IMG/VR virus record: IMGVR_UViG_3300050029_000117 | Location: 1-57,188 of that record | Reading direction: 5' to 3' (one strand) | DNA: 57,188 nucleotides | DNA from: a virus | Part shown: positions 11,357 through 23,940 of the stretch, in pieces | Position numbering within the stretch: position 1 is the stretch's first letter | Layout: each line of letters starts with the position of its first letter | Program-made: the position numbers and the translations under genes | The notes under the pieces: model-generated | Told to the model about the DNA's origin: nothing | Seen by the model: the letters and a program-made list of their open reading frames with translations, nothing else | Database searches by the model: none

Positions 11357-12213
11357 CGACCTCCTGTTTGAAACGGGCCTACAGCTGCGGGGTCAGAATA
11401 CGTGTAGTTATAACCGCCCGTACCGTACGGGTTGTACGTTTGACCGTTCTGTGCGGCGGTTAGCAGATTCTGCTGGTTCTGGTAATTCTGGTAATTTTGC
11501 ACACCGCTCGTAAGAGCGTTACCGGCAATGTTACCGATATTATTCATTGAGGCTGACCGGGCATTACCAGCGGCTATCTGTGTACCCGCGATATTATTGG
11601 CGGCGTCGGTCCCTATTGTGGTCACATTATTAGTCATATTCTGGCCCGCTTGCCCTATTTGGCTCGCCGCTATCTGACCCGTGCCCGCCAGACCCGACAA
11701 CCTATTAAAGTCCGTATTCTGGGCGTTGAGGTTCGCGTTGTACGATGTGAGATTATTTTGGAATCCCTGCTGGTAGTACGTTTCGGCGTTGTTGCCCGCG
11801 AGAGCCTGGAGCGCCACCATCTGATTACCACTGCCGAGAGACCCACCACTTGCCGCCCCCGCCCGATTACTGGCGAGGATGTTGTTCTGCTGGGTCATCA
11901 TATTTTGGTACAACGGATCTTTCTTAAAAGCGGCCATGTCATAGTTTAGCGGGGTGGGCGTAGAGGCAAACCGTCCGCCTGGTTGCATACCTGTAGACAA
12001 CTGGTTTACGGCGTCCGTACCCGCTTTGAGCCACGGTGCCTGGTCCGCTCTCTGCTGGAGAAATTCGTTCCATTGGACCTGCGTGGCGGCATCTGCCGCA
12101 CTGGCCGTTGTTTGGGCCGCTGACTTTTGAGCGTCTGCCGCATTACTTGACGACGCATACGACACACCCGCTGAGATTGCCGCCCCCGCTACTACCGCAA
12201 CTGCTATCCACAT
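11353..12213 (-). CDS. 286-aa Gly/Ala/Asn/Gln-rich protein with an N-terminal TM segment (ejection-protein candidate)
   Basis: MWIAVAVVAGAAISAGVSYA hydrophobic start and low-complexity GANQ-rich body. ATGA overlap downstream and a 10-nt overlap with the radical SAM gene. Confidence 0.4.
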   Translation of the reverse strand: MWIAVAVVAGAAISAGVSYASSSNAADAQKSAAQTTASAADAATQVQWNEFLQQRADQAPWLKAGTDAVNQLSTGMQPGGRFASTPTPLNYDMAAFKKDPLYQNMMTQQNNILASNRAGAASGGSLGSGNQMVALQALAGNNAETYYQQGFQNNLTSYNANLNAQNTDFNRLSGLAGTGQIAASQIGQAGQNMTNNVTTIGTDAANNIAGTQIAAGNARSASMNNIGNIAGNALTSGVQNYQNYQNQQNLLTAAQNGQTYNPYGTGGYNYTYSDPAAVGPFQTGGR

Positions 12214-13244
12214 GACGCACCTCCTTGGTGCAGCTTGAATCCGTCCTTATACCCTTTCATAATTCCTTCGTTGATAATCTGGCAGATCGGCACTGGATAG
12301 CACCGGCCATCCATAGCCAACATAAATACAGGGCGCGACGCTTGGTGGTAGTCCAAATTATCTACCGTAGGCGCCGAGCTGAGAGATACCTGCGTACCCC
12401 CGTCCAACTCCAGGTAGAGACAATACATATTGGACCGCTCCACCGCCAGAGACATCCGGGGGTGGAGGTCTGCAAATTTGGCGATGAATGCTTTATGAAG
12501 ATCGGAAAGATACAACTGGTTGGTGTCACCCTTATTACCCCAATTTTTGAACATGGTGCGTATTCTCAGCATGGGGTAATACTTCTTGGTCACATCAAAC
12601 CACTCTCTGATGTAATCCAGCTCGTCGAGTGTCTGAATGGAAAACATAGAACACATGGCGTGCTTTCCTGATTTCTCCATGTTCTCCAGCGCGTGTATCT
12701 TGGCAGCAAATACGTCCGGCCCGTAATTCTTGGGGTGCTGCATGGACATGGCAAGGCGCAGCACATTGCCCTGACATAGCGGTGAGTCGAGTAACCGACT
12801 AAAAAACTCGTCGTCGGCTAGTCTGATCATGTTGGTGATCGCATTGATGCCCCAGCCGTGATCTGCCGCTTCTTGGGTAAACTCAAAAAAGTCTGGGCGT
12901 AGTGTAGGCTCTCCGCCCGACATAAGCAGATTAAACCCACCGTAGGGAGACAGCACGTTGTTGTAGTACGAGAACGGGTGCATCGGCTCCGCACCCATCG
13001 GGTAGTAACACCAAGAGCACTTCATGTTGCATTGGTCGTGGGTGTGGATGATAATTGTGTTATTGTTCCCGAGCGTCCCTAGCGAATAGAAATTGCTTAC
13101 ATGTTGGATGTCTTTCTCTACCACAGCACTGAACGGTCCATGCTCCGGGCATTCCTTGGTCATCACAACCATGCCGTTCTGGAATATTATCGCCGCTTCA
13201 ACTTTCCGGTAGCAGACCGGGCATAGCGAGAGTGTCTTTATCAT
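12204..13244 (-). CDS. radical SAM enzyme with an N-terminal zinc-ribbon-like module
   Basis: CNMKCSWCYY gives a CX3CX2C cluster. The N-terminus is MIKTLSLCPVCYRKVEAAIIFQNGMVVMTKECPEHGPF. ATG 13244 forms an ATGA overlap with the upstream stop, so the longer ORF-track N-terminus is rejected. Confidence 0.7.
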   Translation of the reverse strand: MIKTLSLCPVCYRKVEAAIIFQNGMVVMTKECPEHGPFSAVVEKDIQHVSNFYSLGTLGNNNTIIIHTHDQCNMKCSWCYYPMGAEPMHPFSYYNNVLSPYGGFNLLMSGGEPTLRPDFFEFTQEAADHGWGINAITNMIRLADDEFFSRLLDSPLCQGNVLRLAMSMQHPKNYGPDVFAAKIHALENMEKSGKHAMCSMFSIQTLDELDYIREWFDVTKKYYPMLRIRTMFKNWGNKGDTNQLYLSDLHKAFIAKFADLHPRMSLAVERSNMYCLYLELDGGTQVSLSSAPTVDNLDYHQASRPVFMLAMDGRCYPVPICQIINEGIMKGYKDGFKLHQGGASCG

Positions 13245-13612
13245 AACGTAGCAACCTTCCCGGACACGCTGGCCCGCACCACACCCGCCACACTGGCGGT
13301 CAATTGTAACGTGTACCCAGTCAGCAGCACCTCGGCCATAGCCAGTGGTAAGTACTGGCCTGCAGTCAGCAGCTGGTCGCATACATGCGTTGCCACTCCA
13401 GCCACTCCACCAGGCGGTATAGCGTGGATGGTGGCCGTACGGCTGGACCCGTCGGTATTAAACAGACTTACCCATTCCACGCGAGTAATGGCCTGCGCCT
13501 TATACTGAGGCGTTGCGGGCGCTGCGCTGGGGAGTGCCACACCGGGTATCAGTAGGGCATCCGTGGTGGGGTCGATATTTTTAATAGTCTGTACTTGCCC
13601 CGGACCGCTCAT
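13241..13612 (-). CDS. 123-aa virion-associated hypothetical protein
   Basis: ATGA-coupled at both ends (13609-13612 and 13241-13244). No motif recognised. Confidence 0.4.
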   Translation of the reverse strand: MSGPGQVQTIKNIDPTTDALLIPGVALPSAAPATPQYKAQAITRVEWVSLFNTDGSSRTATIHAIPPGGVAGVATHVCDQLLTAGQYLPLAMAEVLLTGYTLQLTASVAGVVRASVSGKVATL

Positions 13613-15393
13613 CTCTCCACCTCGGCGTAACCACCTAGTAATACTACACGGGTGGGATCTGACCCCCGCAGTTGCCACACCTTATCACGGGCCGCACCCA
13701 ATTTCCAGAAAACAATACGACCCGTAGCATCCTTGACCCGCTCGCTGCCGTAGGTGTGCCCACCATCCGTGGAGTATGATAGACCTAGCTGTGGTTTGGA
13801 CGCAGTATCTGTCAGTACTACGGAGGCGGGGGGTGGCAATGGAAACCCCGGAGGGGGTAGCTCCGGTCTGCCTATGGGTGTATACCCCCTGTTCAGTAAA
13901 GAGCTGTTGGTGGGGTCAACAAATACCACTTGAGGCGGCTGCGTGTAGCCCGTCCCGCCCGCTGTCAAGGTAACCGACTGGATGCTACCCAGACCCGCCA
14001 CTGCTGTAGCGGTTGCACCGGACCCGTTGCCGTCGGTTGTAACTATGACCACTTGCGGGTCCATAACATAATCATACCCAGGGTTGGTAATGGTGATACT
14101 TGCAACAGCATCGCCAGACAGAGTAGCTACCCCAGCCGCTACGCCCGGTACGGTGGTAATATCCGCATCGATCTCCAGCCTATTGACGAACAGACGATCC
14201 AGATCGTCATTGTCGAATAGGTGGTTGGTTCTCCGTAGCCACACTATCGGGTTTCCCACCTCAGTCAATCGCTCCTGGCTCATATGGTAGATATTGCCCG
14301 ACTGGTAATCACCGACCAGGTGCATGTTGTTAAAATAACAATACGAGTTGCTGAGATGCCGGTTTATCGCGTACGGGTTGTCCACATACGAGCTGCGGTC
14401 ATGCCACATCTGGGTGATCGTGTCGTAAACAAATGTCTCGTTATCGCCGGGGCTGGTAAACACGACAAATGTGTGACCACCCTCGCTGTAGCTGTAACCG
14501 AAAGCGTTTACTCGGTCCGTCCACTTACCCATCCGGTAGACATACGCCGGGGTGCCAATCCGCATCGGTGTGGCGCCGTTGAGCATGACAGGCCCGATAA
14601 ACTCCCCGCCGTTCTGCTTCCGCTCGGTGGCCAGCCAGAAAATACTACCCTCGCCCTGGCAGACTGACCCCGGTGACTCGGTACCCCACGGCACGACCGC
14701 ACCGGAGATCCGGCTGAACGGAAAACCGTTGATCGTTGGCGTGCCATTGTTCCCGTAGTACTCAGTGGTGTACTGCTTAATAAAAATGAGTTGTTCGGAA
14801 AAAGCGATTGGTACCTGTACGATGTCCGAGGCAGATTGCACGGGGGTAGTCGCCAGAGCGTTCCATGTCGTACCGTCGTATAGTTCCGAGGCTGAGGCGT
14901 TCATAGTACCGTTGGTGACGATGAAGTAACCATCGATGTACTCTACGTGGGAGGGAAACGTGGGAAATCCGGGGCTGGAGATGGTAACGAAGGTATTGGC
15001 TATCACATCATAGATGTACCCGGCCTGTCCGTCTACGATCATCAACTGGTTGCCGCCGATACCAGCGGACAAGATACCGTTATTTTTCATACTGACCTGC
15101 CCGAAGGAGGTCAGTAGCGCGCCGAGTTGCGCCGAGGCGGTGCCCGTAGCGTCAAGAGCGAACAGACCGTTGGCCGATACCACATAATTTTTACCGTTGA
15201 ACACGTGCTGACCGCGATTTGGCCCGACCCCCACGTTACCCCATTGGGAGCATCCTGGGGTCTTGACCAACGATATAACAGCCTTGCTGGTCGGATCTGC
15301 GTCCAGCTCGGGGTATAGGTTGACAGACCGACTCGCATTTACGTTGAGTGATCGGCCCTCCCCACTGCCGCCGAGTATTTGGAGCTTGGGCAT
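13609..15393 (-). CDS. tail hub / DNA-stabilisation protein (P22 gp10-like beta-propeller type) with a C-terminal extension
   Basis: N-terminal LNVNASRSVNLYPE...KTPG...RG...NGLFALD pattern, length, and position after the adaptor gene. The C-terminus carries two G-x-GY-x3-P-x-V-x-F/I motifs. Confidence 0.5.
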   Translation of the reverse strand: MPKLQILGGSGEGRSLNVNASRSVNLYPELDADPTSKAVISLVKTPGCSQWGNVGVGPNRGQHVFNGKNYVVSANGLFALDATGTASAQLGALLTSFGQVSMKNNGILSAGIGGNQLMIVDGQAGYIYDVIANTFVTISSPGFPTFPSHVEYIDGYFIVTNGTMNASASELYDGTTWNALATTPVQSASDIVQVPIAFSEQLIFIKQYTTEYYGNNGTPTINGFPFSRISGAVVPWGTESPGSVCQGEGSIFWLATERKQNGGEFIGPVMLNGATPMRIGTPAYVYRMGKWTDRVNAFGYSYSEGGHTFVVFTSPGDNETFVYDTITQMWHDRSSYVDNPYAINRHLSNSYCYFNNMHLVGDYQSGNIYHMSQERLTEVGNPIVWLRRTNHLFDNDDLDRLFVNRLEIDADITTVPGVAAGVATLSGDAVASITITNPGYDYVMDPQVVIVTTDGNGSGATATAVAGLGSIQSVTLTAGGTGYTQPPQVVFVDPTNSSLLNRGYTPIGRPELPPPGFPLPPPASVVLTDTASKPQLGLSYSTDGGHTYGSERVKDATGRIVFWKLGAARDKVWQLRGSDPTRVVLLGGYAEVER

Positions 15394-16133
15394 TACTGCA
15401 CCTCGTCGCCGACATAAATGTTAAATACGCTCCGCTTGCTGCCCGGTACGTCCAGCGGCACAAGACCCTGAACGGAGTTGAGCGTCATAATCGTGCTCAT
15501 GGACTCACGTGCCGCTTTCTTAATCTCCATCGGTATCGGCTGGGTGTGCTTGCGATACTCGTAATACTGCTCAATCGCCCCACAAAACTTGAGAGCCCGG
15601 AAATACTGAGGCTCCATCGTCAGGGTGTCAGTCGGGTTGACAAACTCGGTGAGCATCTTCTGCTGCGTGACAAACAGCGTGTAAGGGGTCGTGCCGTCCG
15701 GTATGACGTAAACCCAGATCGTACCAGTCTGCACCGCCTGCTGGGTAAGACCCGGATCGTACCAAAGGGCATCCGGTCGGCCTTGGGTAATCGACTTGTC
15801 GTCGCGGGCTTTGTACTGGTCCTCAGAATAGATACTCATGCCTGTATCCACACTCTGCCCGTCTCTGAGAAACGCCCCCGTAACTGTCATCGGTTTGGAC
15901 GTGTTGAAATTACCGCCCACCCCGATAGTGTAGCTGGCTTTACCGGCGACCAGCGGGAAACCCTCTTGCACCAACGCCCGGACCATCAGACGTTTGGCTG
16001 ACCAACTGTCCAGCATAATATTGTTGGCCTGGATAGCGTTGGTGATCATCATAGCATCAGCCGGTTCAACCGGATCAAGTACGCCGATCAGCCGCAGCTG
16101 GGCCTCAATAATATCCTGGACAGTTACGATCAT
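15393..16133 (-). CDS. head-to-tail adaptor (P22 gp4-like)
   Basis: The N-terminal IIEAQLRLIGVLDPVEPADAMMITNAIQANNIMLDSW pattern is typical of adaptor/tail accessory proteins. It lies upstream of the hub gene with a TAATG overlap. Confidence 0.5.
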   Translation of the reverse strand: MIVTVQDIIEAQLRLIGVLDPVEPADAMMITNAIQANNIMLDSWSAKRLMVRALVQEGFPLVAGKASYTIGVGGNFNTSKPMTVTGAFLRDGQSVDTGMSIYSEDQYKARDDKSITQGRPDALWYDPGLTQQAVQTGTIWVYVIPDGTTPYTLFVTQQKMLTEFVNPTDTLTMEPQYFRALKFCGAIEQYYEYRKHTQPIPMEIKKAARESMSTIMTLNSVQGLVPLDVPGSKRSVFNIYVGDEVQ

Positions 16134-16546
16134 TTAGTCGGCTCCGGTGCTTCAGGTGTGACAGCGGCGGGCTGCTTACCGGTCTTGGCGGTCGGCTCCA
16201 TTACAGCTTTTTGCAGCTTGGCCAGAATGGTACCATGCGCTTTAAGCAGCTCGGCGGTACGGTCGCCACCGGTACGCTCGTCCATATCCGCTACCAGTTT
16301 CTCCAGCAGCTCCACCCGTGCGGATAGCGCCACGATGTCGGACTGTTTGGCCTCACCGGCTGTCTCTTCGATCAGGGCCTTGGGGTCCGGTTTGGTCAGC
16401 GACCAACCATTTATAATGTGATAGTCCAGTTGCTCCTGACTACCCACCACATACTCAGCGCCCTGCGCGTTGTAGATGGTCGCCGGAAAGATCTGCCCAG
16501 TGCTGTCGTCGTACTCGTCCTCGATCAGATGATTCATTGTGGTCAC
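16130..16546 (-). CDS. 138-aa hypothetical head/neck protein
   Basis: ATGA overlap with the adaptor gene. Acidic N-terminus with a coiled-coil centre. Confidence 0.4.
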   Translation of the reverse strand: MTTMNHLIEDEYDDSTGQIFPATIYNAQGAEYVVGSQEQLDYHIINGWSLTKPDPKALIEETAGEAKQSDIVALSARVELLEKLVADMDERTGGDRTAELLKAHGTILAKLQKAVMEPTAKTGKQPAAVTPEAPEPTK

Positions 16547-16566: not shown

Positions 16567-16719
16567 TTACATACCCTTCATGTAATCTTTGACGGTCGGC
16601 TCGACCTTCTTTTTCTTCTTACCGCCTTTTTTCTTTCCGATTACAGCTTTTTCAGCGGCCAATGCACCCTTGGGGTGCTTAGTTTTGAGAAGGTTTTTGA
16701 TCTCTTTTTCGCCTTTCAT
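16567..16719 (-). CDS. 50-aa Lys-rich micro-protein (MKGEKEIKNLLKTKHPKG...KKKGGKKKKKVEPTVKDYMKGM)
   Basis: AAGGAG SD 8 nt upstream of ATG 16719, clean stop at 16567. Below the ORF-track cutoff. Confidence 0.45.
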   Translation of the reverse strand: MKGEKEIKNLLKTKHPKGALAAEKAVIGKKKGGKKKKKVEPTVKDYMKGM

Positions 16720-16782: not shown

Positions 16783-18018
16783 TTAAGATAGTGTAGCAGC
16801 ACTGCCTCCGCCCACTTCCACATACCAGATGGTTCCAACAGTCTTAACGACACCAAACGCTTCTTTGACCGCACGCATGACGCCGGGCCAATTTTCCGAG
16901 AAGTCGTGGCCCGCGATTACCCGCTTGGCCTTATCTCGCCAGGCTTCAATATTCGCTTTGCACCCTTCGTAGGTGTGCTCTGCGTCGATAAATACCATGT
17001 CCGCATCTTCAACGCAAGCGGCCATTTCCGAGCTGTTGCCGCGTGCGACCCGCAGGTTGGGGTACTGACCGACATTACGTTGGAACGTCTGAAAAACGTC
17101 CTCTTTTTCAACTATTTCCGACAAAATGCCGTTACTCGACGGGTCGTGGCCGGTCCAATTGTCAACGCATGTGACCATGCCCTTGCAACCCTCCAGCAGT
17201 ACCGTCGCACTGCGCCCTTTCCACGACCCCAGCTCAACCACACTACCCATCCGACCGGCGGTATTAAGCAACCACTCCAACTCTTGGTCGGTCATAAAGC
17301 CGTCGATCACCCGTGCTTTTTGTACGGCGGGTGGGTACTGCGCCTGTTTCTGCATAAACTCATGGAAGTTACCCGAAAATCCTTTGCTACCTTCGTGAAT
17401 GAAATCCACGTTGGGCAAACAGTGCATCTTGCCACCAATTTCCGACCAGAGATGACAGAAACCGTAGTCATCACCATACCACCGGCCCTTCTTGACAAAC
17501 GTACCGAACAGGTCATGGGTCATCAAACCGCTGGCGCAGTCGCGGTACGCAAGTTGCGGGTAAGCGTCCTGCATCTTTTCCAGTACGTGCCGGCGAATCT
17601 TGAGGAAACCTGTGGCCAGACCTTCAGCCAGCAGCACACCATTCTCATTGACCGGATGATGGTTTGCGTCGGTTGCCAGCGACACGGCAAATTCCTCAAC
17701 GGCCTGCTTCTTGGGGTACGCTCCACCAATTACATCCTCGGTGCTGGTAATCAGATCCCGGAATGCTTGCGGTGAGAATCCCAGATCTGCGTCGATAAAT
17801 ACCAGATCGGTGCATTCCGACGCCATAAACCGCCGGACCAAGTTGTTGCGGGCCATGGTCACATAGGGGCATCCGGGCTCAAACTTGAACTCGAAAGGAA
17901 CCTCCATAAGCAGGAGGGCTTGCATGGCGTTCATCAGAGACTGGACGGTGGATACGCATACCTTCTTGTCGTAGCAGGGAATGCCGATAAAGATTTTTAC
18001 TGGGGGTGCTTCAGTCAT
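16783..18018 (-). CDS. bifunctional GT-A-type glycosyltransferase / class I SAM-dependent methyltransferase fusion
   Basis: N-terminal half: IGIPCYDKK...ARNNLV...LVFIDADLGF, with a DxD. C-terminal half: GFMTDQELEWLLN...VVELGSWKGRSATVLL...VFIDAEHTYEGC...IAGHDF, a Methyltransf_24/TylF-like pattern. Confidence 0.6.
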   Translation of the reverse strand: MTEAPPVKIFIGIPCYDKKVCVSTVQSLMNAMQALLLMEVPFEFKFEPGCPYVTMARNNLVRRFMASECTDLVFIDADLGFSPQAFRDLITSTEDVIGGAYPKKQAVEEFAVSLATDANHHPVNENGVLLAEGLATGFLKIRRHVLEKMQDAYPQLAYRDCASGLMTHDLFGTFVKKGRWYGDDYGFCHLWSEIGGKMHCLPNVDFIHEGSKGFSGNFHEFMQKQAQYPPAVQKARVIDGFMTDQELEWLLNTAGRMGSVVELGSWKGRSATVLLEGCKGMVTCVDNWTGHDPSSNGILSEIVEKEDVFQTFQRNVGQYPNLRVARGNSSEMAACVEDADMVFIDAEHTYEGCKANIEAWRDKAKRVIAGHDFSENWPGVMRAVKEAFGVVKTVGTIWYVEVGGGSAATLS

Positions 18019-18086
18019 TACTCTTCTCCTTTATGACGGGGTTTGTAGTACGGCCACCCGACGTTCTCCACCCCGTCATAGAGTAG

Positions 18087-18105
18087 AGTCCGCCGGGGGC
18101 CGACT
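18087..18105 (-). terminator. GC-rich hairpin just after the decoration-gene stop (partial terminator candidate)
   Basis: AGTCCGCC-ggg-GGCCGACT imperfect inverted repeat. A second 11-bp perfect inverted repeat, TATGACGGGGT/ACCCCGTCATA, lies at 18032-18080. Confidence 0.35.
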
Positions 18106-18115
18106 GGTAGAGGGC

Positions 18116-19771
18116 TTACGCCCCTTTCATTGCACTCAGACCTGATTCACTGAAAGTCTGTTGCATCTCATTGACCAGGTTGGTAAGGCCAACGCGGCTG
18201 GCGGACAGGGCCACCCAACTTCCCGGTACGCCCCCGCCGGCTCCTACGGCATTGAAAACGCCGATGGTGTAAATCTCGGTAGCCGGAATAATAGCAACCG
18301 CCGTGACGTTCTCGAAGGTAATGGCCAGTGTATTTGCTGCACTGACCCTGACCCCCGCGATACCCAGACCAGCCTGGAAGGACGGCTTATTGACAAAAGC
18401 AGTCGAAGGGCTGGAGTTGATAAACGGGAGACCCGCAACAGTAAATGTCTGCTCGGCGGTAGTGTTGGCAGCTACCGAAGTGGGAGCCAACTGTGATGTC
18501 AGCACCGTGAACGGTGACAACGGGGTCTGCTGGAATGTCGTCACAAAATAGACATCCGTAGCAGACGGGGTGATAGCCGCTGCGGTGGCGTTCATAAACT
18601 GGAGCGCCAGTGTATTAGCTGCACTGATCCTGGAGTTTACAACTGCCAGACCCGCATTGAGGGAGGGCTTGGATGTTCCCACCCCAATATCAGTAGCCAG
18701 CAGGCCGTTAACCGTAAAGGTCTGCTCGGCGGATGTCGCGCTGGCGACCGAGACCAGACCAGTTGCTACGACACCATACCCTACGGTATGCTCCCCGGTG
18801 GGCAGCGAGTGCAGACCGACAACCGAATACGTCTCAGCAGCGGTCGGTGTGATCGCGGCGGTAGTACCGCTGATATTGGCGTATGTGATACCGATCTGGT
18901 TCACACCAGTTACGCGGGCATTCACAATAGCCAGACCGGCCTGAGCGGTCGGCTTGGTGACCATGACGGCCATGCCGGGGGCGATTGTATTGCCACCTAG
19001 GAATGTAACGGTCGGAGCGACGGTGTAGCCACTGCCGGGGTTGGTAACTTGGATACCAGTCACCGTACCGCCCGACAGGATAGGTACAGCCGAAGCACCA
19101 GTACCCAGCGGGGCGATAGTGCTATTGGCCGGATTGACCTGCGGTGTGGCTACCCCGTAGTTAAATACAACGGTCGGCGGGGTCGTGTAGTTGGACCCGG
19201 CACTGGTCATACGCACGCCGGTAACCTGACCGTTGGCGACAAGAGCCGTGCCGGCAGCTGCAACCGGTGTCAGGTTGAAAATCTGCTCTGCCGTAGTGTT
19301 GGCGGCAACAGCGGCGGGGGTGAGTGCCTGCGAATGAACGGGCATACCCCTCAGGACGGTCACATTATACACCTGGGTTGCGGTAGGTGTCAGCGTGGCG
19401 CCGCTGGTGTTGGAGTAGGTCAGGAACAGGGTATTGGCCGCACTGATACGGGCGGTGTGAACACCGAGTCCCGCCTGGGAGGTGGCTTTGTTGACCGCCG
19501 CTACAAAGTCGCCGGCAAGCAGGCCATTACCCGCTGTGGTGCCGACTGTTAGGGACTGCTCGGCGGCTGTCAAAGTGGCGATAGTGGCGGGCGTGAGGGT
19601 CTGCTGGTATGTCACGACCTGCGCCCCAGACCCACCGAATAGTGGACCCTGCGAGGGGTTGGACCGCTGAGGTACAACACCACCGTTGTAAAACGCGATA
19701 GGGTCTACCGCACTTGCTCCGAGGCTTGCACCGTCAACCTGATCGCCTGTAAAAATTCTTGGTTGTCCCAT
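18116..19771 (-). CDS. capsid decoration / surface protein with four tandem ~85-aa beta-domain repeats
   Basis: Immediately downstream of the MCP gene. The repeated pattern is T(A/S)AEQ(T/I)F...(K/N)(P/A)(S/T)xQAGL...(R)(I/V)SAANTL...(F/Y)xN...TP(T/S)AT(Q/D/E)(V/I)Y. Thr/Ala/Ser-rich. The second repeat carries two GxGYxxxPxVxF inserts. Confidence 0.55.
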   Translation of the reverse strand: MGQPRIFTGDQVDGASLGASAVDPIAFYNGGVVPQRSNPSQGPLFGGSGAQVVTYQQTLTPATIATLTAAEQSLTVGTTAGNGLLAGDFVAAVNKATSQAGLGVHTARISAANTLFLTYSNTSGATLTPTATQVYNVTVLRGMPVHSQALTPAAVAANTTAEQIFNLTPVAAAGTALVANGQVTGVRMTSAGSNYTTPPTVVFNYGVATPQVNPANSTIAPLGTGASAVPILSGGTVTGIQVTNPGSGYTVAPTVTFLGGNTIAPGMAVMVTKPTAQAGLAIVNARVTGVNQIGITYANISGTTAAITPTAAETYSVVGLHSLPTGEHTVGYGVVATGLVSVASATSAEQTFTVNGLLATDIGVGTSKPSLNAGLAVVNSRISAANTLALQFMNATAAAITPSATDVYFVTTFQQTPLSPFTVLTSQLAPTSVAANTTAEQTFTVAGLPFINSSPSTAFVNKPSFQAGLGIAGVRVSAANTLAITFENVTAVAIIPATEIYTIGVFNAVGAGGGVPGSWVALSASRVGLTNLVNEMQQTFSESGLSAMKGA

Positions 19772-19817: not shown

Positions 19818-21065
19818 TTATTTAGTTATACGGCAAGCAAGCTGCGGACGGCAGGCCAGATACCCATACAGAATATCCAGACGGCTCAGGTACAGGTTGT
19901 TGATGATGTCGAATCCGCGCAAGATACGCAGACTGATACCTTCAGATACTTCCCTGTAGCACATATCCATACCCTTTGGCAAGGTCATATCGCCGGTTAC
20001 GAAAGTAAAGGCGTCTTTGTGGTACGCGAGGTTCTGACCGTAGCTGGTCGAAGCAGCACCAACAAACACGACGGAGCCTGCAACGCCGCTGGTTGGGCTG
20101 GCGGTCACATTGGCATAGGGGTTCTGTGCAGCCGGGGCGGCGACAACCGGAATGATTGCTGGGCTGATGTTCAAGACCACGTTACCGTTGGCATCAGCGG
20201 TGTATACACCTGTTGCTCCGGCATCAGCTGTAGCAACAAACTGCTGAAGCGCACCAAAAGTCACCTTTGTGTCAGGGTGGACTTTATTGGAGCCAGCCAG
20301 GGTGAACACCGTACCCTGTGTGATGGTCGCACCTGCGGTGAATCCACCCAGACTGATGGTACTACCGATCTGATTGGGGCCGTTGACGAATACGTTGGCG
20401 CTACCGGCCATCGTACCAGTGGTGTGGACAGGAGCCAGCTCATTCTCGTAGAAGTCGAAGTTACTGGCGCGACCCATAGCCCCTTCCAGGAACTGATCGG
20501 AAATCTCGTCACGTGGGTTGAAAAAGTTGGTCATACCGTTGACCAGCGACGCCGAGGTTACAGAGTCAACCTGGACCTTACGGCCCTTACCTTTGGGCGC
20601 GAGGCTCTGGTTAAGCAGAGTCTTGGCATTCAGGAAAGGCAGGATACCGGCAGGAGTTACGCCTGCGGTACCGGTCAGCTGGTACACATCCTTGAACATG
20701 CCAAAGGCGTCATTCTCGATGTTGGCCACAATCATGGAGATTGCGGGATCAAGAATACGCTCGGCAAAATCCTCGATGTTAAGGGCCAGATCGGTATCGC
20801 TGAAATCCATATCAGCACCGCCGATATTAGCGAGTACCAGGACCACGTTGGTTTCGTTGGTGGCCTGCATGTTGGCAACCGGCCCACGGCGGAAATTGTA
20901 CTGGTTGGGCAACCGGATTTTCAGTTGGTTGCCGATTTTGGCGTTTTCCTGGCCGAACTGATCATCGTATTGACGGCCAATGGTGCCTAGAAACGTGCTC
21001 TTGTTGTGAAGGACTGCGAGCGCCTTACGGGTTATTTTTATATCTGTCAAAAAATTTGAACTCAC
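19818..21065 (-). CDS. major capsid protein (P22 coat-like HK97 fold)
   Basis: 415 aa with a GTG start and AAGGAGAG SD. Lies after the scaffold gene. The C-terminal ...RILRGFDIINNLYLSRLDILYGY and N-terminal motifs are typical of P22-type coat proteins. Confidence 0.75.
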   Translation of the reverse strand: MSSNFLTDIKITRKALAVLHNKSTFLGTIGRQYDDQFGQENAKIGNQLKIRLPNQYNFRRGPVANMQATNETNVVLVLANIGGADMDFSDTDLALNIEDFAERILDPAISMIVANIENDAFGMFKDVYQLTGTAGVTPAGILPFLNAKTLLNQSLAPKGKGRKVQVDSVTSASLVNGMTNFFNPRDEISDQFLEGAMGRASNFDFYENELAPVHTTGTMAGSANVFVNGPNQIGSTISLGGFTAGATITQGTVFTLAGSNKVHPDTKVTFGALQQFVATADAGATGVYTADANGNVVLNISPAIIPVVAAPAAQNPYANVTASPTSGVAGSVVFVGAASTSYGQNLAYHKDAFTFVTGDMTLPKGMDMCYREVSEGISLRILRGFDIINNLYLSRLDILYGYLACRPQLACRITK

Positions 21066-21080
21066 TGTGTACTCTCCTTT

Positions 21081-21995
21081 TTACCTCCTGAAACTGGCCT
21101 CACGCATCTCCCTGATCACATCTGCTGCCGGTCGCTTATCGTCATCTACTTCGATTGCGCCCCGTGTGGTTACCGGTGTGATCGGTGGTGGTGCGCTACT
21201 GACCTGTCTAACAGGGGTGCTTTTATTTAATGTGCTTTCAAGTTTGACCAGCTCGCGCATTGCTGCTACGGCGCCGAGTCGTGCGATACGTGCAGTATCC
21301 TGCTTGTTGTTGTAGAGGTGGCGCAAGAGTTCCGGGCCGACCTCAGATTCCAAAATTGCTTCCTGCATGATCCCGTTAAGGGGTAGCTGGTACTGACCGG
21401 GCTGATGCCAATTATCGGCAATATCCTGTAGCTCGGGGTCCAGCTCGGCGGCTTTTTCCAACCGCTTCAAGTACTCGGTGTGCTTCTGAGCCTGTGTCTG
21501 CTGCTCGGTCTGCTGGTGCGACTCCTGTTTCAAGTCGTATTTCACCTTGGCCGTCACATACTCGTCTCGCTTCGCCTGGTACTCGCGGTTGAGCCGCTTC
21601 TGCGCTTTTTCGTACTCGCTGTAGTCGTCAAAATCTGTAGAGTCCAGATCGTCCGGTTCAGTCGGTGGTTGCGGCGGACCGGCTGGCTTTACTGGCTCGG
21701 GTGGTGTCGGTACTCCTGGGGCTTTACCCCCCGCTTCCGCTACACCTTTCCAATACGCTGCCTCTTCCTTCGCTTCCTGCCGTCTCTTCCGTTCACCCTC
21801 AAGTGCGGTGAGTGGGACCATTGTGGCTGGTGGTGGGTCTGCCTGGGGCGGGTCTGCCGCTGCCGGGGGGTCTACCTGTGCGGGGTCAGCCGCTGGTGGA
21901 TCAACCTGGGGCGGGTCTGCCGCTGCCGGGGGGTCTGTTACAACCACTTCACCTCTGTTGCCTGCGAGTAATTCAAAGAGCTTCATGTTACACAT
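21081..21995 (-). CDS. scaffolding protein (putative)
   Basis: Lies directly upstream of the MCP gene. Acidic and helical, with an N-terminal (A)DPPQ(V/A)DPPAA repeats encoded by ~32-bp direct DNA repeats at about 21840-21934. Confidence 0.5.
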   Translation of the reverse strand: MCNMKLFELLAGNRGEVVVTDPPAAADPPQVDPPAADPAQVDPPAAADPPQADPPPATMVPLTALEGERKRRQEAKEEAAYWKGVAEAGGKAPGVPTPPEPVKPAGPPQPPTEPDDLDSTDFDDYSEYEKAQKRLNREYQAKRDEYVTAKVKYDLKQESHQQTEQQTQAQKHTEYLKRLEKAAELDPELQDIADNWHQPGQYQLPLNGIMQEAILESEVGPELLRHLYNNKQDTARIARLGAVAAMRELVKLESTLNKSTPVRQVSSAPPPITPVTTRGAIEVDDDKRPAADVIREMREASFRR

Positions 21996-22137: not shown

Positions 22138-23940
22138 TTACTGCCTCCATACCGCTATCCGTCCAAATTTCAGTGTTAGCGTTTTTGAGTTGGTTATCGC
22201 CCCATCAGCGCGTACATACATTTGTAATGTTGCTGCTGAGATGGTTGTGGCTGATGCTGGTATTGTTAATATCGGGGTTCGTAGGTGCAGCACTTTGTCG
22301 GCATTTATCGAAACAGCGGTAGCCTCGTATCCCTCGATAGCACGGGTACTGAGTGACGCACCGTCAACCGTGGCGCGGAGGTCAAAAAATAGTTCCGTTA
22401 CTGGTGTATCCACCCAACTCGTAGAACTAATAAATACTTCTACTTCGGCATAATATGACCCACCCACTACCATGCGAGGCAAAAGTGTTGTGGTACTGCC
22501 ATATCCCTGGATACCTATCAAATTGCCCGATGCCATAGCAGTAACATCAATCTGCTGTACGTTGCCATACCCCGATGGATGTGCCGTAACAGAGCAGACC
22601 GCCGTGGGGGTCCCGGAAATTGCGCCAGCCCCTAATTCCCCCGCTACAACGCCGGTTGCTGTCCCTGACAGCGATCCGCCGGTTGCCGTGGCGAGTACGG
22701 GGTTGTTAAATATATTTTTGCTGCGACCCGCCTTGATCGTTCCGGTTGCTGCACCATCTGCACCAGCGGCAGCAAATGTGAATGTATCGGCCGCCGCTGT
22801 CGCCACCACAAAAACATTATTCAGGTCGGCTGGTGTAGCTCCAGTTACAGCGAATTGTTCACCCGCTCGAAAACCGTGTGCCGTGGCGGTTGCTGTGACA
22901 ATTCCCGATGTTCGGCTGAGTGTTACAGTGATTGATGAGTTTGCAAAACAATTGGTAGTTGACACAGGGCGCGTATCGGATTCGGTGGGTGCTATCGTGG
23001 CAACTATAGCGGCAACGGTGGCACCTATTCCACTGGCGGCAATTACACTGTAGTGGATTTTGTCCGCGATTTTGAAGTTGGTCGCAGTAGCAAGACCCGT
23101 TGTATCTGTGGGGTTCACAGTTCTACGGAACGCGTCAACATAGTAAAAACCGGCGTTGTCCTTGTAATTATCGTATATACGCTTGTTGAGGGTTTGTACC
23201 CTCTGCATATTTTGAACCGTTGCCCGCGCTTCCCCGGATGCCACAGGTGTCGCTGATACCAGGATAAGTTTTGATCCACTTCCTAGAATGCGAGTAATAA
23301 TTTTGCACATGGAGGTGTAAGTGGTTTCCTCGTCAATCGGACCATTTGATACGCTCTGGTCGTTAATTGTAGGACTCTGCATTAAAACAAGTTGCGGCTG
23401 GTACGCCATAACATCCGCTTCCAGCCTTGCCAGCACATCAACAGACGTATCCCCTGATTGAGCGCCATTTGATACGATATTCAGGGGGTAAGATCTCAGT
23501 ATCTGCACCCAATTCACCCACGAATGCCCACTCCTGCGGTGTGAATAACGGGTGAAGCATGTTCCAGGGACAGTGCCGTTTGGGATGTCCCGTGGAATGT
23601 CCGGCAGTAGCACGGTGTATGTATTATCATCAACTCGTGTAGCAATGAGATTTCGATGTTTTTTAATGCTGGGGTAATTCCGGTGCCAGATGGTCACATT
23701 CGCGCCGGTCCATAATTTATGGCCCGTTTCTACCACCGTAAGCACGCCTGTTGCGTTGTTGTAGGTGAATGACGTGGGAGCGCCAACCACGTCCCACCAA
23801 TCCGTCATTGAATCACCACAAAGTACGGTCCGCAAGCCCGTGGACCCACTAGGCCCTCTCACTCCTTGCCCACCACCAAACCCAAACGCCCACGCATTCC
23901 CCGCCCACAAACACATTGCTATAATCAGTAATCGCCTCAC
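22138..23940 (-). CDS. secreted-type SGNH/GDSL hydrolase (esterase/deacetylase) with C-terminal beta-rich binding domains
   Basis: GTG start. Signal peptide MRRLLIIAMCLWAGNAWA. GDS block VLCGDSMTDWW, and DKIHYS as a DxxH block. The C-terminal region resembles fibre or carbohydrate-binding modules. Confidence 0.55.
   Translation of the reverse strand: MRRLLIIAMCLWAGNAWAFGFGGGQGVRGPSGSTGLRTVLCGDSMTDWWDVVGAPTSFTYNNATGVLTVVETGHKLWTGANVTIWHRNYPSIKKHRNLIATRVDDNTYTVLLPDIPRDIPNGTVPGTCFTRYSHRRSGHSWVNWVQILRSYPLNIVSNGAQSGDTSVDVLARLEADVMAYQPQLVLMQSPTINDQSVSNGPIDEETTYTSMCKIITRILGSGSKLILVSATPVASGEARATVQNMQRVQTLNKRIYDNYKDNAGFYYVDAFRRTVNPTDTTGLATATNFKIADKIHYSVIAASGIGATVAAIVATIAPTESDTRPVSTTNCFANSSITVTLSRTSGIVTATATAHGFRAGEQFAVTGATPADLNNVFVVATAAADTFTFAAAGADGAATGTIKAGRSKNIFNNPVLATATGGSLSGTATGVVAGELGAGAISGTPTAVCSVTAHPSGYGNVQQIDVTAMASGNLIGIQGYGSTTTLLPRMVVGGSYYAEVEVFISSTSWVDTPVTELFFDLRATVDGASLSTRAIEGYEATAVSINADKVLHLRTPILTIPASATTISAATLQMYVRADGAITNSKTLTLKFGRIAVWRQ

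What the first reader, a model, noticed from the sequence alone, without database searches (positions are those of the whole stretch)
16783..19771. Glycosyltransferase-methyltransferase fusion directly after the capsid and a Thr/Ala-rich four-repeat decoration protein
A single 411-aa ORF joins a GT-A-type glycosyltransferase half (with an FIDAD DxD motif) to a class I SAM methyltransferase half (VVELGSWKGRSAT...FIDAEHTYE). It lies immediately downstream of the MCP gene and a 551-aa surface-type protein. That protein is built from four tandem beta-domain repeats rich in Thr, Ser and Ala. The arrangement suggests O-glycosylation of the capsid surface with a methylated sugar. Virion glycosylation is known for only a few phages, and a fused GT-MT dedicated to it is unusual.
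Basis: partly seen in the sequence, partly recalled or inferred. Interest (0 to 1): 0.65.

Follow-up and report, generated by a model that had tools for sequence, protein, structure and literature searches.

The report
Capsid-linked sugar-adding and methylating phage enzyme
An uncultured P22-like phage encodes, right after its capsid genes, one enzyme joining a sugar-transferring half to a methylating half; related phages keep sugar-building enzymes at the same spot, so the phage head probably carries a methylated sugar, but no experiment shows this yet.

Summary
Window 16783-18018 (-) encodes a 411-aa soluble protein. Its N half is a GT-A glycosyltransferase with an invariant DxD motif (D76/D78). 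Its C half is a class I SAM methyltransferase (Pfam Methyltransf_24). The gene follows the P22-type coat gene and a 551-aa Thr/Ala-rich all-beta protein made of four real repeats.

The closest solved relatives by profile search are the archaeal-virus glycosyltransferase STIV A197 (GT half) and the mycobacterial sugar O-methyltransferase MeT1 (MT half).

Context is the strongest evidence. In 33 of 55 related phage loci a homologous GT sits directly after the repeat-protein gene, fused to the methyltransferase in 8. In other relatives the same slot holds unrelated GT2-TPR glycosyltransferases, other methyltransferases, a hexapeptide acetyltransferase and radical SAM enzymes. The GT-MT also follows coat genes where the repeat protein is absent.

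Head-protein glycosylation with a methylated sugar is therefore the best reading (about 0.55), but it is unproven. No acceptor site could be identified. Distant family members sit in replication modules of T4-like phages.

The fusion is not rare. The GT family has about 6,300 cluster representatives, and PBCV-1 A064R is a functional precedent. I rate it a new variant of a known kind, of moderate interest.

The parts
16783..18018 (-). 411-aa bifunctional glycosyltransferase-methyltransferase (GT-MT); soluble, no transmembrane segment
   Evidence: ORF. SD AAGGAG before the ATG and maximum KD19 hydrophobicity 1.41. AF2 pLDDT 93.7, two domains. 204 homologues.
17335..18018 (-). GT-A glycosyltransferase half (residues 1-228). 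DxD motif FIDAD at 17785-17799. Invariant R57, D76, D78, Y101, G137, D184, F187, H208
   Evidence: phrog_1574 1.9e-22. Invariant columns. Profile hit to STIV A197, 2e-7. Foldseek hits to stand-alone phage GT-A proteins, TM 0.81, and to COLGALT1/LH3. Relatives weakly hit Pfam Anp1 and Glycos_transf_2.
16804..17307 (-). Class I SAM-dependent methyltransferase half (residues about 238-405). SAM motif VVELGSWKGRSAT at 17203-17241; FIDAEHTYE at 16966-16992
   Evidence: Pfam Methyltransf_24 1.4e-13. Profile hit to M. hassiacum MeT1, 3e-11. Top Foldseek PDB hits are 6g7d/6g80.
18116..19771 (-). 551-aa Thr/Ala-rich all-beta protein with four repeats; presumed head accessory or decoration protein and a candidate glycan acceptor. 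Repeats: R1 19340-19618; R2 18797-19339 (insertion 18992-19237); R3 18521-18796; R4 18236-18520
   Evidence: repeats z 14-21. AF2 pLDDT 81, pTM 0.80. More than 960 homologues. No match in PDB by sequence or fold. Always directly after the coat gene.
19818..21065 (-). Major capsid protein, P22 coat type; the alternative candidate acceptor
   Evidence: Pfam PF11651 2.5e-24; phrog_283 3.7e-60.
21081..21995 (-). Head scaffolding protein
   Evidence: phrog_8865 2.3e-26.
16567..16719 (-). Unannotated 50-aa Lys-rich small ORF in the 236-nt gap after the GT-MT gene
   Evidence: Sequence and SD; translation; conserved C-terminal KKKKK-EPTV-DY-KG in L001.
16130..16546 (-). 138-aa conserved protein that closes the variable slot (homologues in 27 of 50 related loci)
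15393..16133 (-). 246-aa conserved head-completion or adaptor-position protein
   Evidence: phrog_12985 2.9e-32; syntenic in relatives.
13609..15393 (-). 594-aa Hc3 / P22 gp10-like (Phage_stabilise) protein; carries the same small GYT-type domains as the 551-aa protein
   Evidence: phrog_578 2.7e-72 and phrog_460; Pfam Phage_stabilise in orthologues.
12204..13382 (-). Radical SAM enzyme inside the structural operon; a possible second virion-modifying or glycan-modifying enzyme
   Evidence: Pfam Zn_ribbon_HMPTM 2.4e-17 plus Radical_SAM 5.3e-9. NCBIfam partial hits to TrsS and Tes. rSAM genes in the same module of relatives.

Best explanation
The 411-aa protein is a soluble, late-expressed, two-domain enzyme.

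Proposed mechanism:
1. The N-terminal GT-A domain uses its DxD motif (D76/D78), probably with H208 as a further metal ligand and D184 as catalytic base. It takes a host nucleotide-sugar and transfers the sugar onto a phage head protein. The acceptor is the 551-aa four-repeat protein and/or the P22-type coat protein, in the cytoplasm during head assembly.
2. The fused C-terminal class I SAM methyltransferase then O-methylates that sugar. The head surface ends up carrying a small methylated glycan.

Status of each step:
- Shown: the domain identities, the intact catalytic motifs, the conservation of the fusion, and its fixed position after the capsid genes.
- Inferred from context: that the product is a glycan on a head protein.
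- Assumptions: O-linkage, sugar identity, acceptor identity, the roles assigned to H208 and D184, and any biological role such as shielding, stability or reduced non-specific adsorption.
For: 1. Enzyme identity.
- Methyltransf_24 at 52 bits.
- A profile of 41 homologues hits the sugar 1-O-methyltransferase MeT1 (3e-11) and the viral GT-A enzyme STIV A197 (2e-7). MeT1 function is described in PMC9883506. A197 is described as essential and as possibly glycosylating the STIV capsid protein B345 in PMC10551542.
- AF2 pLDDT is 93.7. Foldseek finds GT-A enzymes and O-methyltransferases.
- DxD, D184 and H208 are invariant.

2. Synteny.
- Scaffold, coat, (repeat protein), GT-MT is kept from 65% down to 30% identity, with different portal and capsid families. 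It is also seen in GenBank MW202691.
- Of 55 unique loci with the repeat protein and at least 1.5 kb downstream, 33 have this GT immediately downstream; 8 of these are fused to the MT.

3. Non-orthologous replacement. The same slot in relatives holds:
- GT2-TPR (L029, L033, L043);
- a second GT2 (L033);
- Methyltransf_11 plus Methyltransf_24 as separate genes (L004);
- Methyltransf_23 (L061);
- a hexapeptide acetyltransferase (L029);
- radical SAM/SPASM enzymes (L033, L038).
Apart from a conserved 138-aa-type protein, the identifiable content of the slot is almost entirely glycan-building or glycan-tailoring enzymes. Many small ORFs and several ORFs of 200 aa or more there remain unidentified.

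4. GT and MT recur together in different fused and split forms. This fits a methylated sugar.

5. The window encodes separate C5 and N6/N4 DNA methylases elsewhere. It has no thymidylate-synthase-type hydroxymethylase or TET and no other GT.

6. Precedents. Mycobacteriophages glycosylate capsid and tail-tube proteins with their own GTs (PMC12363180, PMC11256854). PBCV-1 A064R is a GT-GT-MT fusion that builds and methylates the capsid glycan (PMC9614988).
Against: - No biochemical or proteomic data exist; the phage is known only from a metagenome.
- No acceptor signature was found. The conserved N-x-S/T in each repeat is often N-P-T and is kept in a prophage without the GT. Ser/Thr columns that seemed enriched in GT-positive loci are clade effects that vanish in sister pairs.
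- The repeat protein occurs without any detected GT in about 18 of 55 loci. The GT-MT occurs without the repeat protein (L002, L010, L003, MW202691). The pairing is therefore not obligatory.
- The slot between the coat gene and the head-completion genes could simply be a permissive insertion site.
- Distant GT homologues in Cr30 and DLP_6 lie in replication modules. A GT2-TPR-MT24 fusion whose MT is 40-50% identical lies beside thymidylate-synthase-like and DNA-polymerase genes. The domains are thus also used in other contexts.
- No nucleotide-sugar synthesis genes are present in the phage.
Confidence: 0.55

Rival explanations
1. The enzyme glycosylates a virion protein other than the head shell, for example the gp10-like/Hc3 protein, tail needle or fibres, or ejection proteins. 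Its position beside the coat gene would then reflect only late co-expression.
For: - In cyanomyovirus ACG-2014f the GT homologue sits among tail-collar fibre genes, next to another GT and a nucleotide-sugar epimerase.
- In mycobacteriophages the tail tube is glycosylated as well as the capsid (PMC12363180).
- The 594-aa Hc3-like protein shares the small GYT-type domains with the 551-aa protein.
Against: In the P22-like relatives, the coat gene (with or without the repeat protein) directly upstream is the one constant neighbour. The genes downstream vary.
Confidence: 0.12
2. The enzyme modifies a host cell-envelope glycan (LPS, capsule or another polysaccharide intermediate) late in infection, for example to stop progeny from adsorbing to debris. 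No virion protein is glycosylated.
For: - One GenBank homologue is annotated 'polysaccharide biosynthesis'.
- The MT's best characterised relative acts on a free polysaccharide (PMC9883506).
- Pfam relatives (Anp1, GT2) are mostly polysaccharide enzymes.
- Some relatives carry GT2-type enzymes typical of such pathways.
Against: - The protein has no transmembrane segment or signal peptide.
- No Gtr-type flippase or membrane partners, and no integrase or lysogenic-conversion context, were found in the window.
- The gene is embedded in the head operon across many lineages.
- TPR domains on the replacement GT2 enzymes point to protein substrates. This is an inference from what TPR domains generally do.
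Confidence: 0.13
3. The enzyme hypermodifies phage DNA by glycosylating a modified base and methylating the sugar, as an anti-restriction measure.
For: - Distant GT-family members in T4-like Cr30 and DLP_6 lie between the gp46/47 and clamp genes. From memory, T4 carries its alpha-glucosyltransferase gene at that position.
- A GT2-TPR-MT24 fusion (L012) lies beside a thymidylate-synthase-like gene and a DNA polymerase gene.
- PHROGs labels the MT family 'DNA methyltransferase'.
Against: - The window has no thymidylate-synthase/hydroxymethylase or TET/JBP hit among 52 scanned ORFs.
- It has ordinary C5 and N6/N4 DNA methylases in its replication region.
- The gene is in the late head operon, not the early region.
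- The fold is GT-A, whereas T4 AGT and BGT are GT-B (from memory).
- The MT lacks DNA-methylase motifs, and its nearest solved relative is a sugar O-methyltransferase.
Confidence: 0.07
4. The slot after the coat gene is simply a hotspot for insertion of accessory (moron) genes. The GT-MT would then serve a function unrelated to the virion, such as small-molecule or metabolite modification.
For: - Slot content is highly variable. GT presence and absence are interspersed on the coat-protein tree.
- A homing endonuclease occupies the slot in MW202691.
Against: The identifiable enzymatic cargo of the slot is strongly biased to glycosyltransferases and sugar-tailoring enzymes from several unrelated families. 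That bias is not expected for a neutral hotspot.
Confidence: 0.1

Closest known systems
PBCV-1 (chlorovirus) A064R, a GT-GT-methyltransferase fusion acting on the major capsid protein glycan
   Same: Both are virus-encoded, soluble, single-chain proteins. Both have an N-terminal GT-A domain with a DxD motif and a C-terminal class I SAM methyltransferase. In A064R the methyltransferase O-methylates the sugar the enzyme has just added, and the product decorates the capsid protein (PMC9614988).
   Different: - A064R has three domains, including a second, novel rhamnosyltransferase. It extends a pre-existing N-linked glycan and belongs to a eukaryotic giant virus.
- The window protein has two domains and is the only GT in the phage, so it would have to attach the first sugar itself.
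- No sequence homology was demonstrated here. The only trace is a weak Foldseek hit to an unnamed 638-aa chlorovirus protein.
Mycobacteriophage virion glycosylation (Che8 gp110, Corndog gp38, Myrna; Freeman et al. 2023, cited in PMC11256854 and PMC12363180)
   Same: Phage-encoded glycosyltransferases glycosylate the phage's own capsid (and tail-tube) proteins in the bacterial cytoplasm. This is the same concept as proposed here. A Che8 GT appears among the Foldseek hits (Q855A2, E 8e-11).
   Different: - The hosts are actinobacteria and the phages are siphoviruses or myoviruses.
- In the related cluster F1 phage Maravista the GT genes lie near the 3' end of the genome, not beside the capsid gene (PMC11256854).
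- No fused methyltransferase is reported in what I could read.
- Similarity to the Che8 GT is at fold level only (13% identity, TM 0.30).
STIV A197 glycosyltransferase (PDB 2c0n)
   Same: It is the only solved structure detected by sequence profile for the GT half (E 2e-7, query residues 29-146 including the DxD). It is a minimal viral GT-A enzyme, essential, and proposed to glycosylate the STIV major capsid protein (PMC10551542).
   Different: It comes from an archaeal virus and is a single domain of 197 aa with no methyltransferase. Its substrate is also unproven.
Mycobacterium hassiacum MeT1 (PDB 6g7d/6g80), the methylmannose-polysaccharide 1-O-methyltransferase
   Same: It is the best sequence match (3e-11) and fold match for the MT half. 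The shared motifs are ExGxxxG, a D-H-x-x-G-S-like segment, FIDxxH and HD. It is a sugar O-methyltransferase (PMC9883506).
   Different: MeT1 is a stand-alone bacterial enzyme that methylates the reducing-end 1-OH of a free oligomannoside. That position would be occupied in a protein-linked sugar, so the regiochemistry here must differ.
Phage capsid decoration and cement proteins (lambda gpD, phage L Dec, T4 Hoc/Soc, BPP-1 cement protein; review PMC7602432)
   Same: The 551-aa protein is encoded directly after the coat gene, is all-beta and is modular, as many decoration proteins are.
   Different: It has no detectable sequence or fold similarity to any solved protein. Its architecture of four tandem homologous beta domains with a nested insertion has no match among solved structures. 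Its presence in virions is untested.

Membership tests
GT-A fold glycosyltransferases | Single Rossmann-like alpha/beta/alpha nucleotide-binding domain | tested here: met
   AF2 model with pLDDT above 90 over residues 9-230. Foldseek gives TM 0.81 to stand-alone phage 'Glyco_tranf_GTA_type' proteins and also hits COLGALT1/LH3 GT-A domains.
GT-A fold glycosyltransferases | DxD metal/nucleotide-sugar binding motif at the end of the central strand | tested here: met
   FIDAD at residues 74-78. D76 and D78 are invariant in 41 homologues. The motif aligns with the A197 DED motif.
GT-A fold glycosyltransferases | Membership of a curated GT sequence family (Pfam/CAZy) | tested here: inconclusive
   The window protein has no Pfam GT hit at E <= 1. 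Of 41 relatives, 13 weakly hit Anp1 (best 9.6e-5) and 12 hit Glycos_transf_2 (best 9.8e-5). The PHROGs family phrog_1574 is 'unknown function'. CAZy was not available.
GT-A fold glycosyltransferases | Nucleotide-sugar dependent transfer activity | not testable with these tools
   Needs an enzyme assay.
Class I SAM-dependent methyltransferases (Pfam Methyltransf_24; MeT1-like sugar O-methyltransferases) | Scores above the Pfam gathering threshold | tested here: met
   52 bits against a cut-off of 26.3, residues 261-372. 35 of 41 homologues also match.
Class I SAM-dependent methyltransferases (Pfam Methyltransf_24; MeT1-like sugar O-methyltransferases) | SAM-binding motif I (E/DxGxxxG) and the conserved FIDxxH / HD motifs shared with MeT1 | tested here: met
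   VELGSWKG, FIDAEH and GHD are present and align to the MeT1 motifs VEIGTYCG, FIDGGH and HD.
Class I SAM-dependent methyltransferases (Pfam Methyltransf_24; MeT1-like sugar O-methyltransferases) | The substrate is a sugar hydroxyl | not testable with these tools
   Only inferred. The grounds are the MeT1 relationship and the repeated pairing with glycosyltransferases.
Phage virion self-glycosylation systems (Che8 type) | Phage-encoded glycosyltransferase | tested here: met
Phage virion self-glycosylation systems (Che8 type) | Glycans demonstrated on capsid or tail proteins | not testable with these tools
   The phage is uncultured. Glycoproteomics is needed.
Phage virion self-glycosylation systems (Che8 type) | Homology of the GT to the Che8 or Corndog enzymes | tested here: inconclusive
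   Similarity is at fold level only: Q855A2 at E 8e-11, TM 0.30, 13% identity.
A064R-type multidomain capsid-glycan transferases | GT-A domain and class I methyltransferase in one polypeptide | tested here: met
A064R-type multidomain capsid-glycan transferases | Three catalytic domains (two GTs plus one MT) | tested here: not met
   There are only two domains in 411 aa.
Phage DNA glucosyltransferases (T4 AGT/BGT type hypermodification) | A base hydroxymethylase or TET that supplies the acceptor, with the gene located in the early/replication module | tested here: not met
   No Thymidylat_synt or Tet_JBP hit among 52 ORFs. The gene lies in the late head operon. The fold is GT-A, not GT-B (the GT-B fold of T4 AGT and BGT is from memory).
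Seroconversion Gtr-type O-antigen glycosylation | Membrane-embedded GtrA/GtrB/GtrC-type proteins in a lysogenic-conversion context | tested here: not met
   No transmembrane segment (maximum KD19 1.41). No integrase or Gtr families found in the window.
Capsid decoration/cement proteins (for the 551-aa protein) | Encoded adjacent to the coat gene and conserved with it | tested here: met
   Directly after the coat gene in the related loci where the upstream flank was captured.
Capsid decoration/cement proteins (for the 551-aa protein) | Similarity to a known decoration protein, or a demonstrated location on the capsid | tested here: not met
   No PDB sequence hit. No Foldseek hit with E < 0.001. 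Virion location is not testable here.

The most novel reading that the evidence does not exclude
Many environmental P22-like podoviruses carry a previously unrecognised 'head glycan locus'. It would be a variable slot between the coat or repeat-protein genes and the head-completion genes. In this slot, interchangeable glycosyltransferase families (the phrog_1574 GT-A family, GT2-TPR, GT2), methyl- and acetyl-transferases and radical SAM enzymes would build lineage-specific tailored glycans on the capsid surface. That would make capsid glycosylation a common and rapidly diversifying trait of these phages rather than a mycobacteriophage curiosity. The hosts are unknown; I presume they are Gram-negative bacteria.
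Probability: 0.4. Interest if true: 0.75.

Novelty: new variant of a known kind. Interest (0 to 1): 0.55.

Why it matters
Self-glycosylation of virions has been shown experimentally only for a few mycobacteriophages, some archaeal viruses and giant viruses.

If the prediction holds, a large uncharacterised GT-A family would gain a function. That family has about 6,300 cluster representatives at 50% identity, and about a quarter of the best 150 are long enough to be fusions.

Capsid glycans with methylated sugars would then be widespread in environmental podoviruses. That bears on virion stability, adsorption to particles and non-host cells, grazing and immune recognition. It also bears on the engineering of phage surfaces.

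The variable slot also offers a natural library of soluble, cytoplasmic protein-glycosylating and sugar-tailoring enzymes.

The test is simple. Co-express two or three genes in E. coli and measure intact masses.

Tried and rejected
1. N-glycosylation sequon idea. Each of the four repeats has a conserved N-x-S/T (N121, N299, N394, N488). Many homologues read N-P-T, and the motif is intact in P0175, whose prophage (L018) has no GT. I conclude the motif is structural, not a sequon.

2. Acceptor-site search by contrast. I compared Ser/Thr enrichment per alignment column between GT-positive and GT-negative loci, for both the repeat protein and the coat protein. The top columns were clade effects that disappear in sister pairs. 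Overall S+T content is also the same (0.21 against 0.20; 0.161 against 0.160).

3. Fold assignment of the 551-aa protein. Foldseek against PDB gave nothing with E < 0.001. A profile search against PDB sequences gave nothing. Pfam and NCBIfam gave nothing. The only PHROGs hits fall on the inserted GYT-type domains.

4. Host assignment. The genome-contig scan with the GT-MT gave only two partial methyltransferase hits, in a Nitrospirota MAG and in Neolewinella. The host remains unknown.

5. A profile-based scan of viral contigs with alignment A1 failed because no conserved stretch was available.

6. Intrinsic terminators or promoters that might isolate the GT-MT gene. No convincing minus-strand site lies in the intergenic gaps.

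7. The Freeman et al. 2023 paper could not be read. Its results are cited second-hand.

8. The top Foldseek PDB hits to COLGALT1 align over about 465 columns at rmsd about 18 A. I do not take them as evidence for a collagen-type, hydroxylysine-directed activity.

Full report
**What is there.** The window is a complete 57,188-bp metagenomic (JGI) phage contig; the query protein's own database entry gives 57,188 bases as its longest contig. On the minus strand it carries a P22-like head operon:
- scaffold, 21081-21995 (phrog_8865);
- coat protein, 19818-21065 (Pfam P22_CoatProtein 2.5e-24; phrog_283 3.7e-60);
- a 551-aa ORF, 18116-19771;
- a 411-aa ORF, 16783-18018;
- a 138-aa protein, then a 246-aa protein;
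- a 594-aa Hc3/gp10-like protein;
- a radical SAM enzyme;
- a DNA-ejection protein.

The 551-aa and 411-aa genes each start at an ATG preceded by AAGGAG. The shorter 499-aa JGI call for the first has no such site, and homologues cover the full 551 residues.

**The fusion enzyme.** Pfam recognises only the C-terminal half: Methyltransf_24, 52 bits against a cut-off of 26.3. The N-terminal half matches only PHROGs family phrog_1574, which has unknown function (1.9e-22).

A database search found 204 homologues. Among the best 120, most are full-length fusions at 31-66% identity, and many others are stand-alone N-terminal halves of 230-260 aa. In an alignment of 41 of them, R57, D76, D78, Y101, G137, D184, F187 and H208 are invariant. 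This covers the DxD motif, a G(E/D)D segment and a histidine. From general knowledge of GT-A enzymes, I read these as the metal/nucleotide-sugar site and the catalytic base.

The AlphaFold2 model is confident (pLDDT 93.7, pTM 0.81) and has two alpha/beta domains.

A profile of the family hits two solved proteins:
- M. hassiacum MeT1 for the methyltransferase half (3e-11, with aligned SAM and FIDxxH motifs);
- the STIV A197 GT-A glycosyltransferase for the N half (2e-7, spanning the DxD).

Foldseek agrees. MeT1 is the top PDB hit, and catechol/sugar-type O-methyltransferases follow. The GT-A domains of COLGALT1 and LH3 also appear, although the COLGALT1 alignments are poor (rmsd about 18 A). 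In the viral library the best hits are stand-alone phage GT-A proteins (TM 0.81). A Che8 glycosyltransferase and several phage and giant-virus proteins that combine GT and MT also appear.

MeT1 methylates a sugar hydroxyl of methylmannose oligosaccharides (PMC9883506). A197 is an essential viral GT thought to glycosylate the STIV capsid protein (PMC10551542). The window protein has no hydrophobic segment. I conclude with high confidence that it is a soluble bifunctional glycosyltransferase plus SAM-dependent, most likely sugar O-, methyltransferase.

**The 551-aa protein.** Its composition is A 15%, T 14%, V 11%, G 11% and S 8%. It contains four homologous units of about 95 aa (39-54% identity, z = 14-21 against shuffled sequence). 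The second unit is split by an 82-aa insertion. That insertion holds two copies of a small 'GYTxxPxVxF' domain, which also occurs twice in the 594-aa Hc3-like protein and in other phage structural proteins.

The AF2 model (pLDDT 81, pTM 0.80) is all-beta and compact. It has no significant match in the PDB by fold or by sequence profile. More than 960 homologues exist, some in prophages within large bacterial contigs. Its role as a head accessory or decoration protein rests on position only.

**Context, the main evidence for function.** The order scaffold, coat, repeat protein, GT-MT is kept in relatives at 65% identity (L001) and about 57% identity (L006-L008).
- At 36-40% identity (L002, L010) the GT-MT follows the coat gene closely, without the repeat protein.
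- At 30% identity (L003) it follows a different capsid family and three small genes.
- In L004 the two halves are separate genes, with an extra Methyltransf_11 gene between them.
- In GenBank MW202691 the order is scaffold, P22 coat, HNH endonuclease, a 68-aa ORF, a 425-aa GT(-MT-like) gene, gp4, gp10.

I then collected 80 IMG/VR loci through the repeat protein and combined them with the loci already fetched. Of 64 unique versions, 55 had at least 1.5 kb of downstream sequence:
- 33 carry the phrog_1574-type GT directly after the repeat-protein gene (8 fused to the methyltransferase, 25 alone);
- 22 do not.

Among those 22, L029, L033 and L043 carry an unrelated GT2-TPR glycosyltransferase in the same place. 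L033 adds a second GT2 and a radical SAM/SPASM enzyme. L038 has a radical SAM enzyme. L029 has a hexapeptide-repeat acetyltransferase. L061, a GT-positive locus, has a Methyltransf_23 gene next to the GT.

An inventory of the slot between the repeat protein and the adaptor gene in 50 loci shows one conserved non-enzymatic protein (the 138-aa type, 27 loci). Beyond that, the ORFs that could be identified are almost all glycosyltransferases and sugar-tailoring enzymes. Many small ORFs and several of 200 aa or more remain unidentified. GT presence and absence are interspersed on the coat-protein tree, which implies repeated gain, loss or replacement. Enzymes with one shared activity but no common ancestry are recruited to one position next to the capsid genes. 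This is the best argument that the product is a glycan on a head protein, and that methylation (or acetylation in other lineages) tailors that glycan.

**Evidence against, and the alternatives.** No acceptor could be defined.
- The striking N-x-S/T in every repeat is frequently N-P-T and persists where no GT is present. It is structural.
- Columns enriched in Ser/Thr in GT-positive loci turned out to be clade effects.
- The repeat protein and the GT each occur without the other. The target could be the coat protein, the repeat protein, both, or another virion protein.

The domains are also used elsewhere.
- In cyanomyovirus ACG-2014f the GT homologue lies among tail-collar fibre genes, with another GT and a sugar epimerase. 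That context is still virion and glycan.
- In Pelagibacter phage HTVC023P it lies next to a GT1 gene.
- In the T4-like phages Cr30 and DLP_6 it lies between the recombination-endonuclease/peptide-deformylase genes and the sliding-clamp genes. From memory, T4 keeps its DNA alpha-glucosyltransferase at that position.
- A 955-993-aa GT2-TPR-Methyltransf_24-GT2 fusion has a methyltransferase 40-50% identical to the window's. In L012 it lies beside a thymidylate-synthase-like gene and a DNA polymerase gene.

A DNA-hypermodification role therefore cannot be dismissed for the family as a whole. For this phage it is unlikely, for three reasons.
- A Pfam/PHROGs survey of 52 further ORFs found a full replication module and ordinary C5 and N6/N4 DNA methylases.
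- The same survey found no hydroxymethylase, TET, nucleotide-sugar synthesis gene, integrase or second GT.
- The gene is in the late head operon.

Host-envelope modification is disfavoured by the lack of membrane segments or Gtr-type partners, and by the head-operon position. A neutral insertion hotspot is disfavoured by the functional bias of the slot's cargo.

**Most likely mechanism.**
- Shown: the domain identities, the intact motifs and the synteny.
- Inferred: the enzyme is made late with the head proteins. The GT-A domain takes a host nucleotide-sugar and, with a divalent metal held by D76/D78, glycosylates exposed side chains of the repeat protein and/or the coat protein. The tethered methyltransferase then O-methylates the sugar with SAM. 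As this is the only GT in the genome, the glycan should be very small: a methylated monosaccharide, or a short homo-oligomer if the GT is processive.
- Assumed: O-linkage, the identity of the sugar and the biological benefit.

I put this reading at about 0.55. Rival readings are another virion protein as target (about 0.12), a host glycan (about 0.13), an unrelated moron function (about 0.10) and DNA (about 0.07).

**Comparison with what is known.** Functionally the closest system is PBCV-1 A064R. It is a single polypeptide with a DxD GT-A rhamnosyltransferase, a second rhamnosyltransferase and a class I methyltransferase that 2-O-methylates the terminal rhamnose of the capsid-protein glycan (PMC9614988). 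The window enzyme works like a two-domain version of it. It fails the three-domain criterion, and no sequence homology was shown.

Conceptually it matches mycobacteriophage virion glycosylation (Che8, Corndog, Myrna; PMC12363180, PMC11256854). However, the GT family, the gene location, the phage type and the fused methyltransferase all differ. By sequence, its only solved relatives are A197 and MeT1.

No close cultured phage exists. Coat-protein identity is at most 39%, and the repeat protein gives only fragmentary hits.

**Novelty and interest.**
- A phmmer search of 1.84 billion representatives finds 6,271 relatives of the GT half (3,108 at 1e-10).
- By my count, about a quarter of the best 150 are 380-520 aa, some with the GT at the C-terminal end.
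- GT-plus-MT proteins are common among uncultured Caudovirales in BFVD.

What is new is the family-level prediction. This is an uncharacterised GT-A family, fused or adjacent to sugar methyltransferases and anchored to the capsid genes of P22-like podoviruses. It sits in a slot that other lineages fill with different glycan enzymes and radical SAM enzymes. That makes it a new variant of a known kind (virus-encoded capsid glycosylation). It is of moderate interest (0.55) and can be tested directly by co-expression and mass spectrometry.

Noticed in passing
window 12204-13382 (-); also L007 13500-14435, L033 8774-9718, L038 8538-9446: A radical SAM enzyme lies inside the virion structural operon, between the gp10-like gene and the DNA-ejection gene. 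It has an HMPTM-type N-terminal zinc ribbon and a Radical_SAM domain, with partial similarity to TrsS and to the tetraether lipid synthase Tes. Related phages carry rSAM or rSAM/SPASM genes in the same module, sometimes right after the glycosyltransferase. This may be a second kind of virion-protein or glycan modification.
   Followed up: partly
window 22138-23940 (-): A 600-aa SGNH/GDSL 'lipase'-like protein (phrog_6102 4.8e-19) has an N-terminal signal-peptide-like sequence, MRRLLIIAMCLWAGNAWAFG. It is encoded between the portal-side genes and the scaffold gene. A secretion signal is odd for a gene in a head operon. It may be a polysaccharide esterase.
   Followed up: no
window 16567-16719 (-); L001 12874-13029: An unannotated 50-aa Lys-rich ORF with a strong Shine-Dalgarno site lies in the 236-nt gap after the GT-MT gene. 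It is conserved in the 65%-identity relative (shared KKKKK-EPTV-DY-KG tail). A 51-aa basic ORF also follows the GT-MT in L003.
   Followed up: partly
window 18992-19237 (-) and about 13906-14136 (-): The same small 'GYTxxPxVxF' domain occurs twice as an insertion inside repeat 2 of the 551-aa protein and twice near residues 420-496 of the 594-aa Hc3/gp10-like protein. It matches domains in many phage baseplate and virion proteins (phrog_460, 708, 719, 4406).
   Followed up: partly
L103 3959-4807 (Caulobacter phage Cr30) and L104 3959-4816 (Stenotrophomonas phage DLP_6): Distant homologues (26-27% identity) of the GT half lie in the replication module of T4-like phages, between the recombination-endonuclease/peptide-deformylase genes and the sliding-clamp genes. 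From memory, this is the place of the alpha-glucosyltransferase gene in T4. The GT-A family may therefore also serve DNA modification.
   Followed up: partly
L012 6828-9695, L014 6870-9851, L015 6810-9830: Fusion proteins of 955-1006 aa occur in these loci. L012 and L014 read GT2, TPR, Methyltransf_24, GT2 by Pfam; L015 was matched only through its methyltransferase. The methyltransferase is 40-50% identical to the window's MT half. In L012 the gene sits beside a thymidylate-synthase-like gene, a DNA polymerase, a Holliday-junction resolvase and a repair exonuclease.
   Followed up: partly
window 18116-19771 (-): The source annotation (JGI) calls this gene as 499 aa from an internal GTG that has no Shine-Dalgarno site. 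The 551-aa ATG start has AAGGAG upstream, and the extra 52 residues are conserved in homologues.
   Followed up: yes
window 18116-19771 (-), residues N121, N299, N394, N488: Each of the four repeats keeps an invariant or nearly invariant Asn in an N-x-S/T-A context, followed by (I/L)TP(T/S)A. It looks like a sequon, but it is often N-P-T and is kept in GT-less relatives, so it is probably a structural turn.
   Followed up: yes
window, whole contig: The phage encodes its own replication module (DNA polymerase, primase, helicase, exonuclease, gp2.5-like SSB). It also encodes a pentapeptide-repeat protein, a Cpn10 co-chaperonin, a TetR-family regulator, a C39 peptidase domain and both C5 and N6/N4 DNA methylases. 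No integrase was detected among the 52 ORFs scanned.
   Followed up: partly
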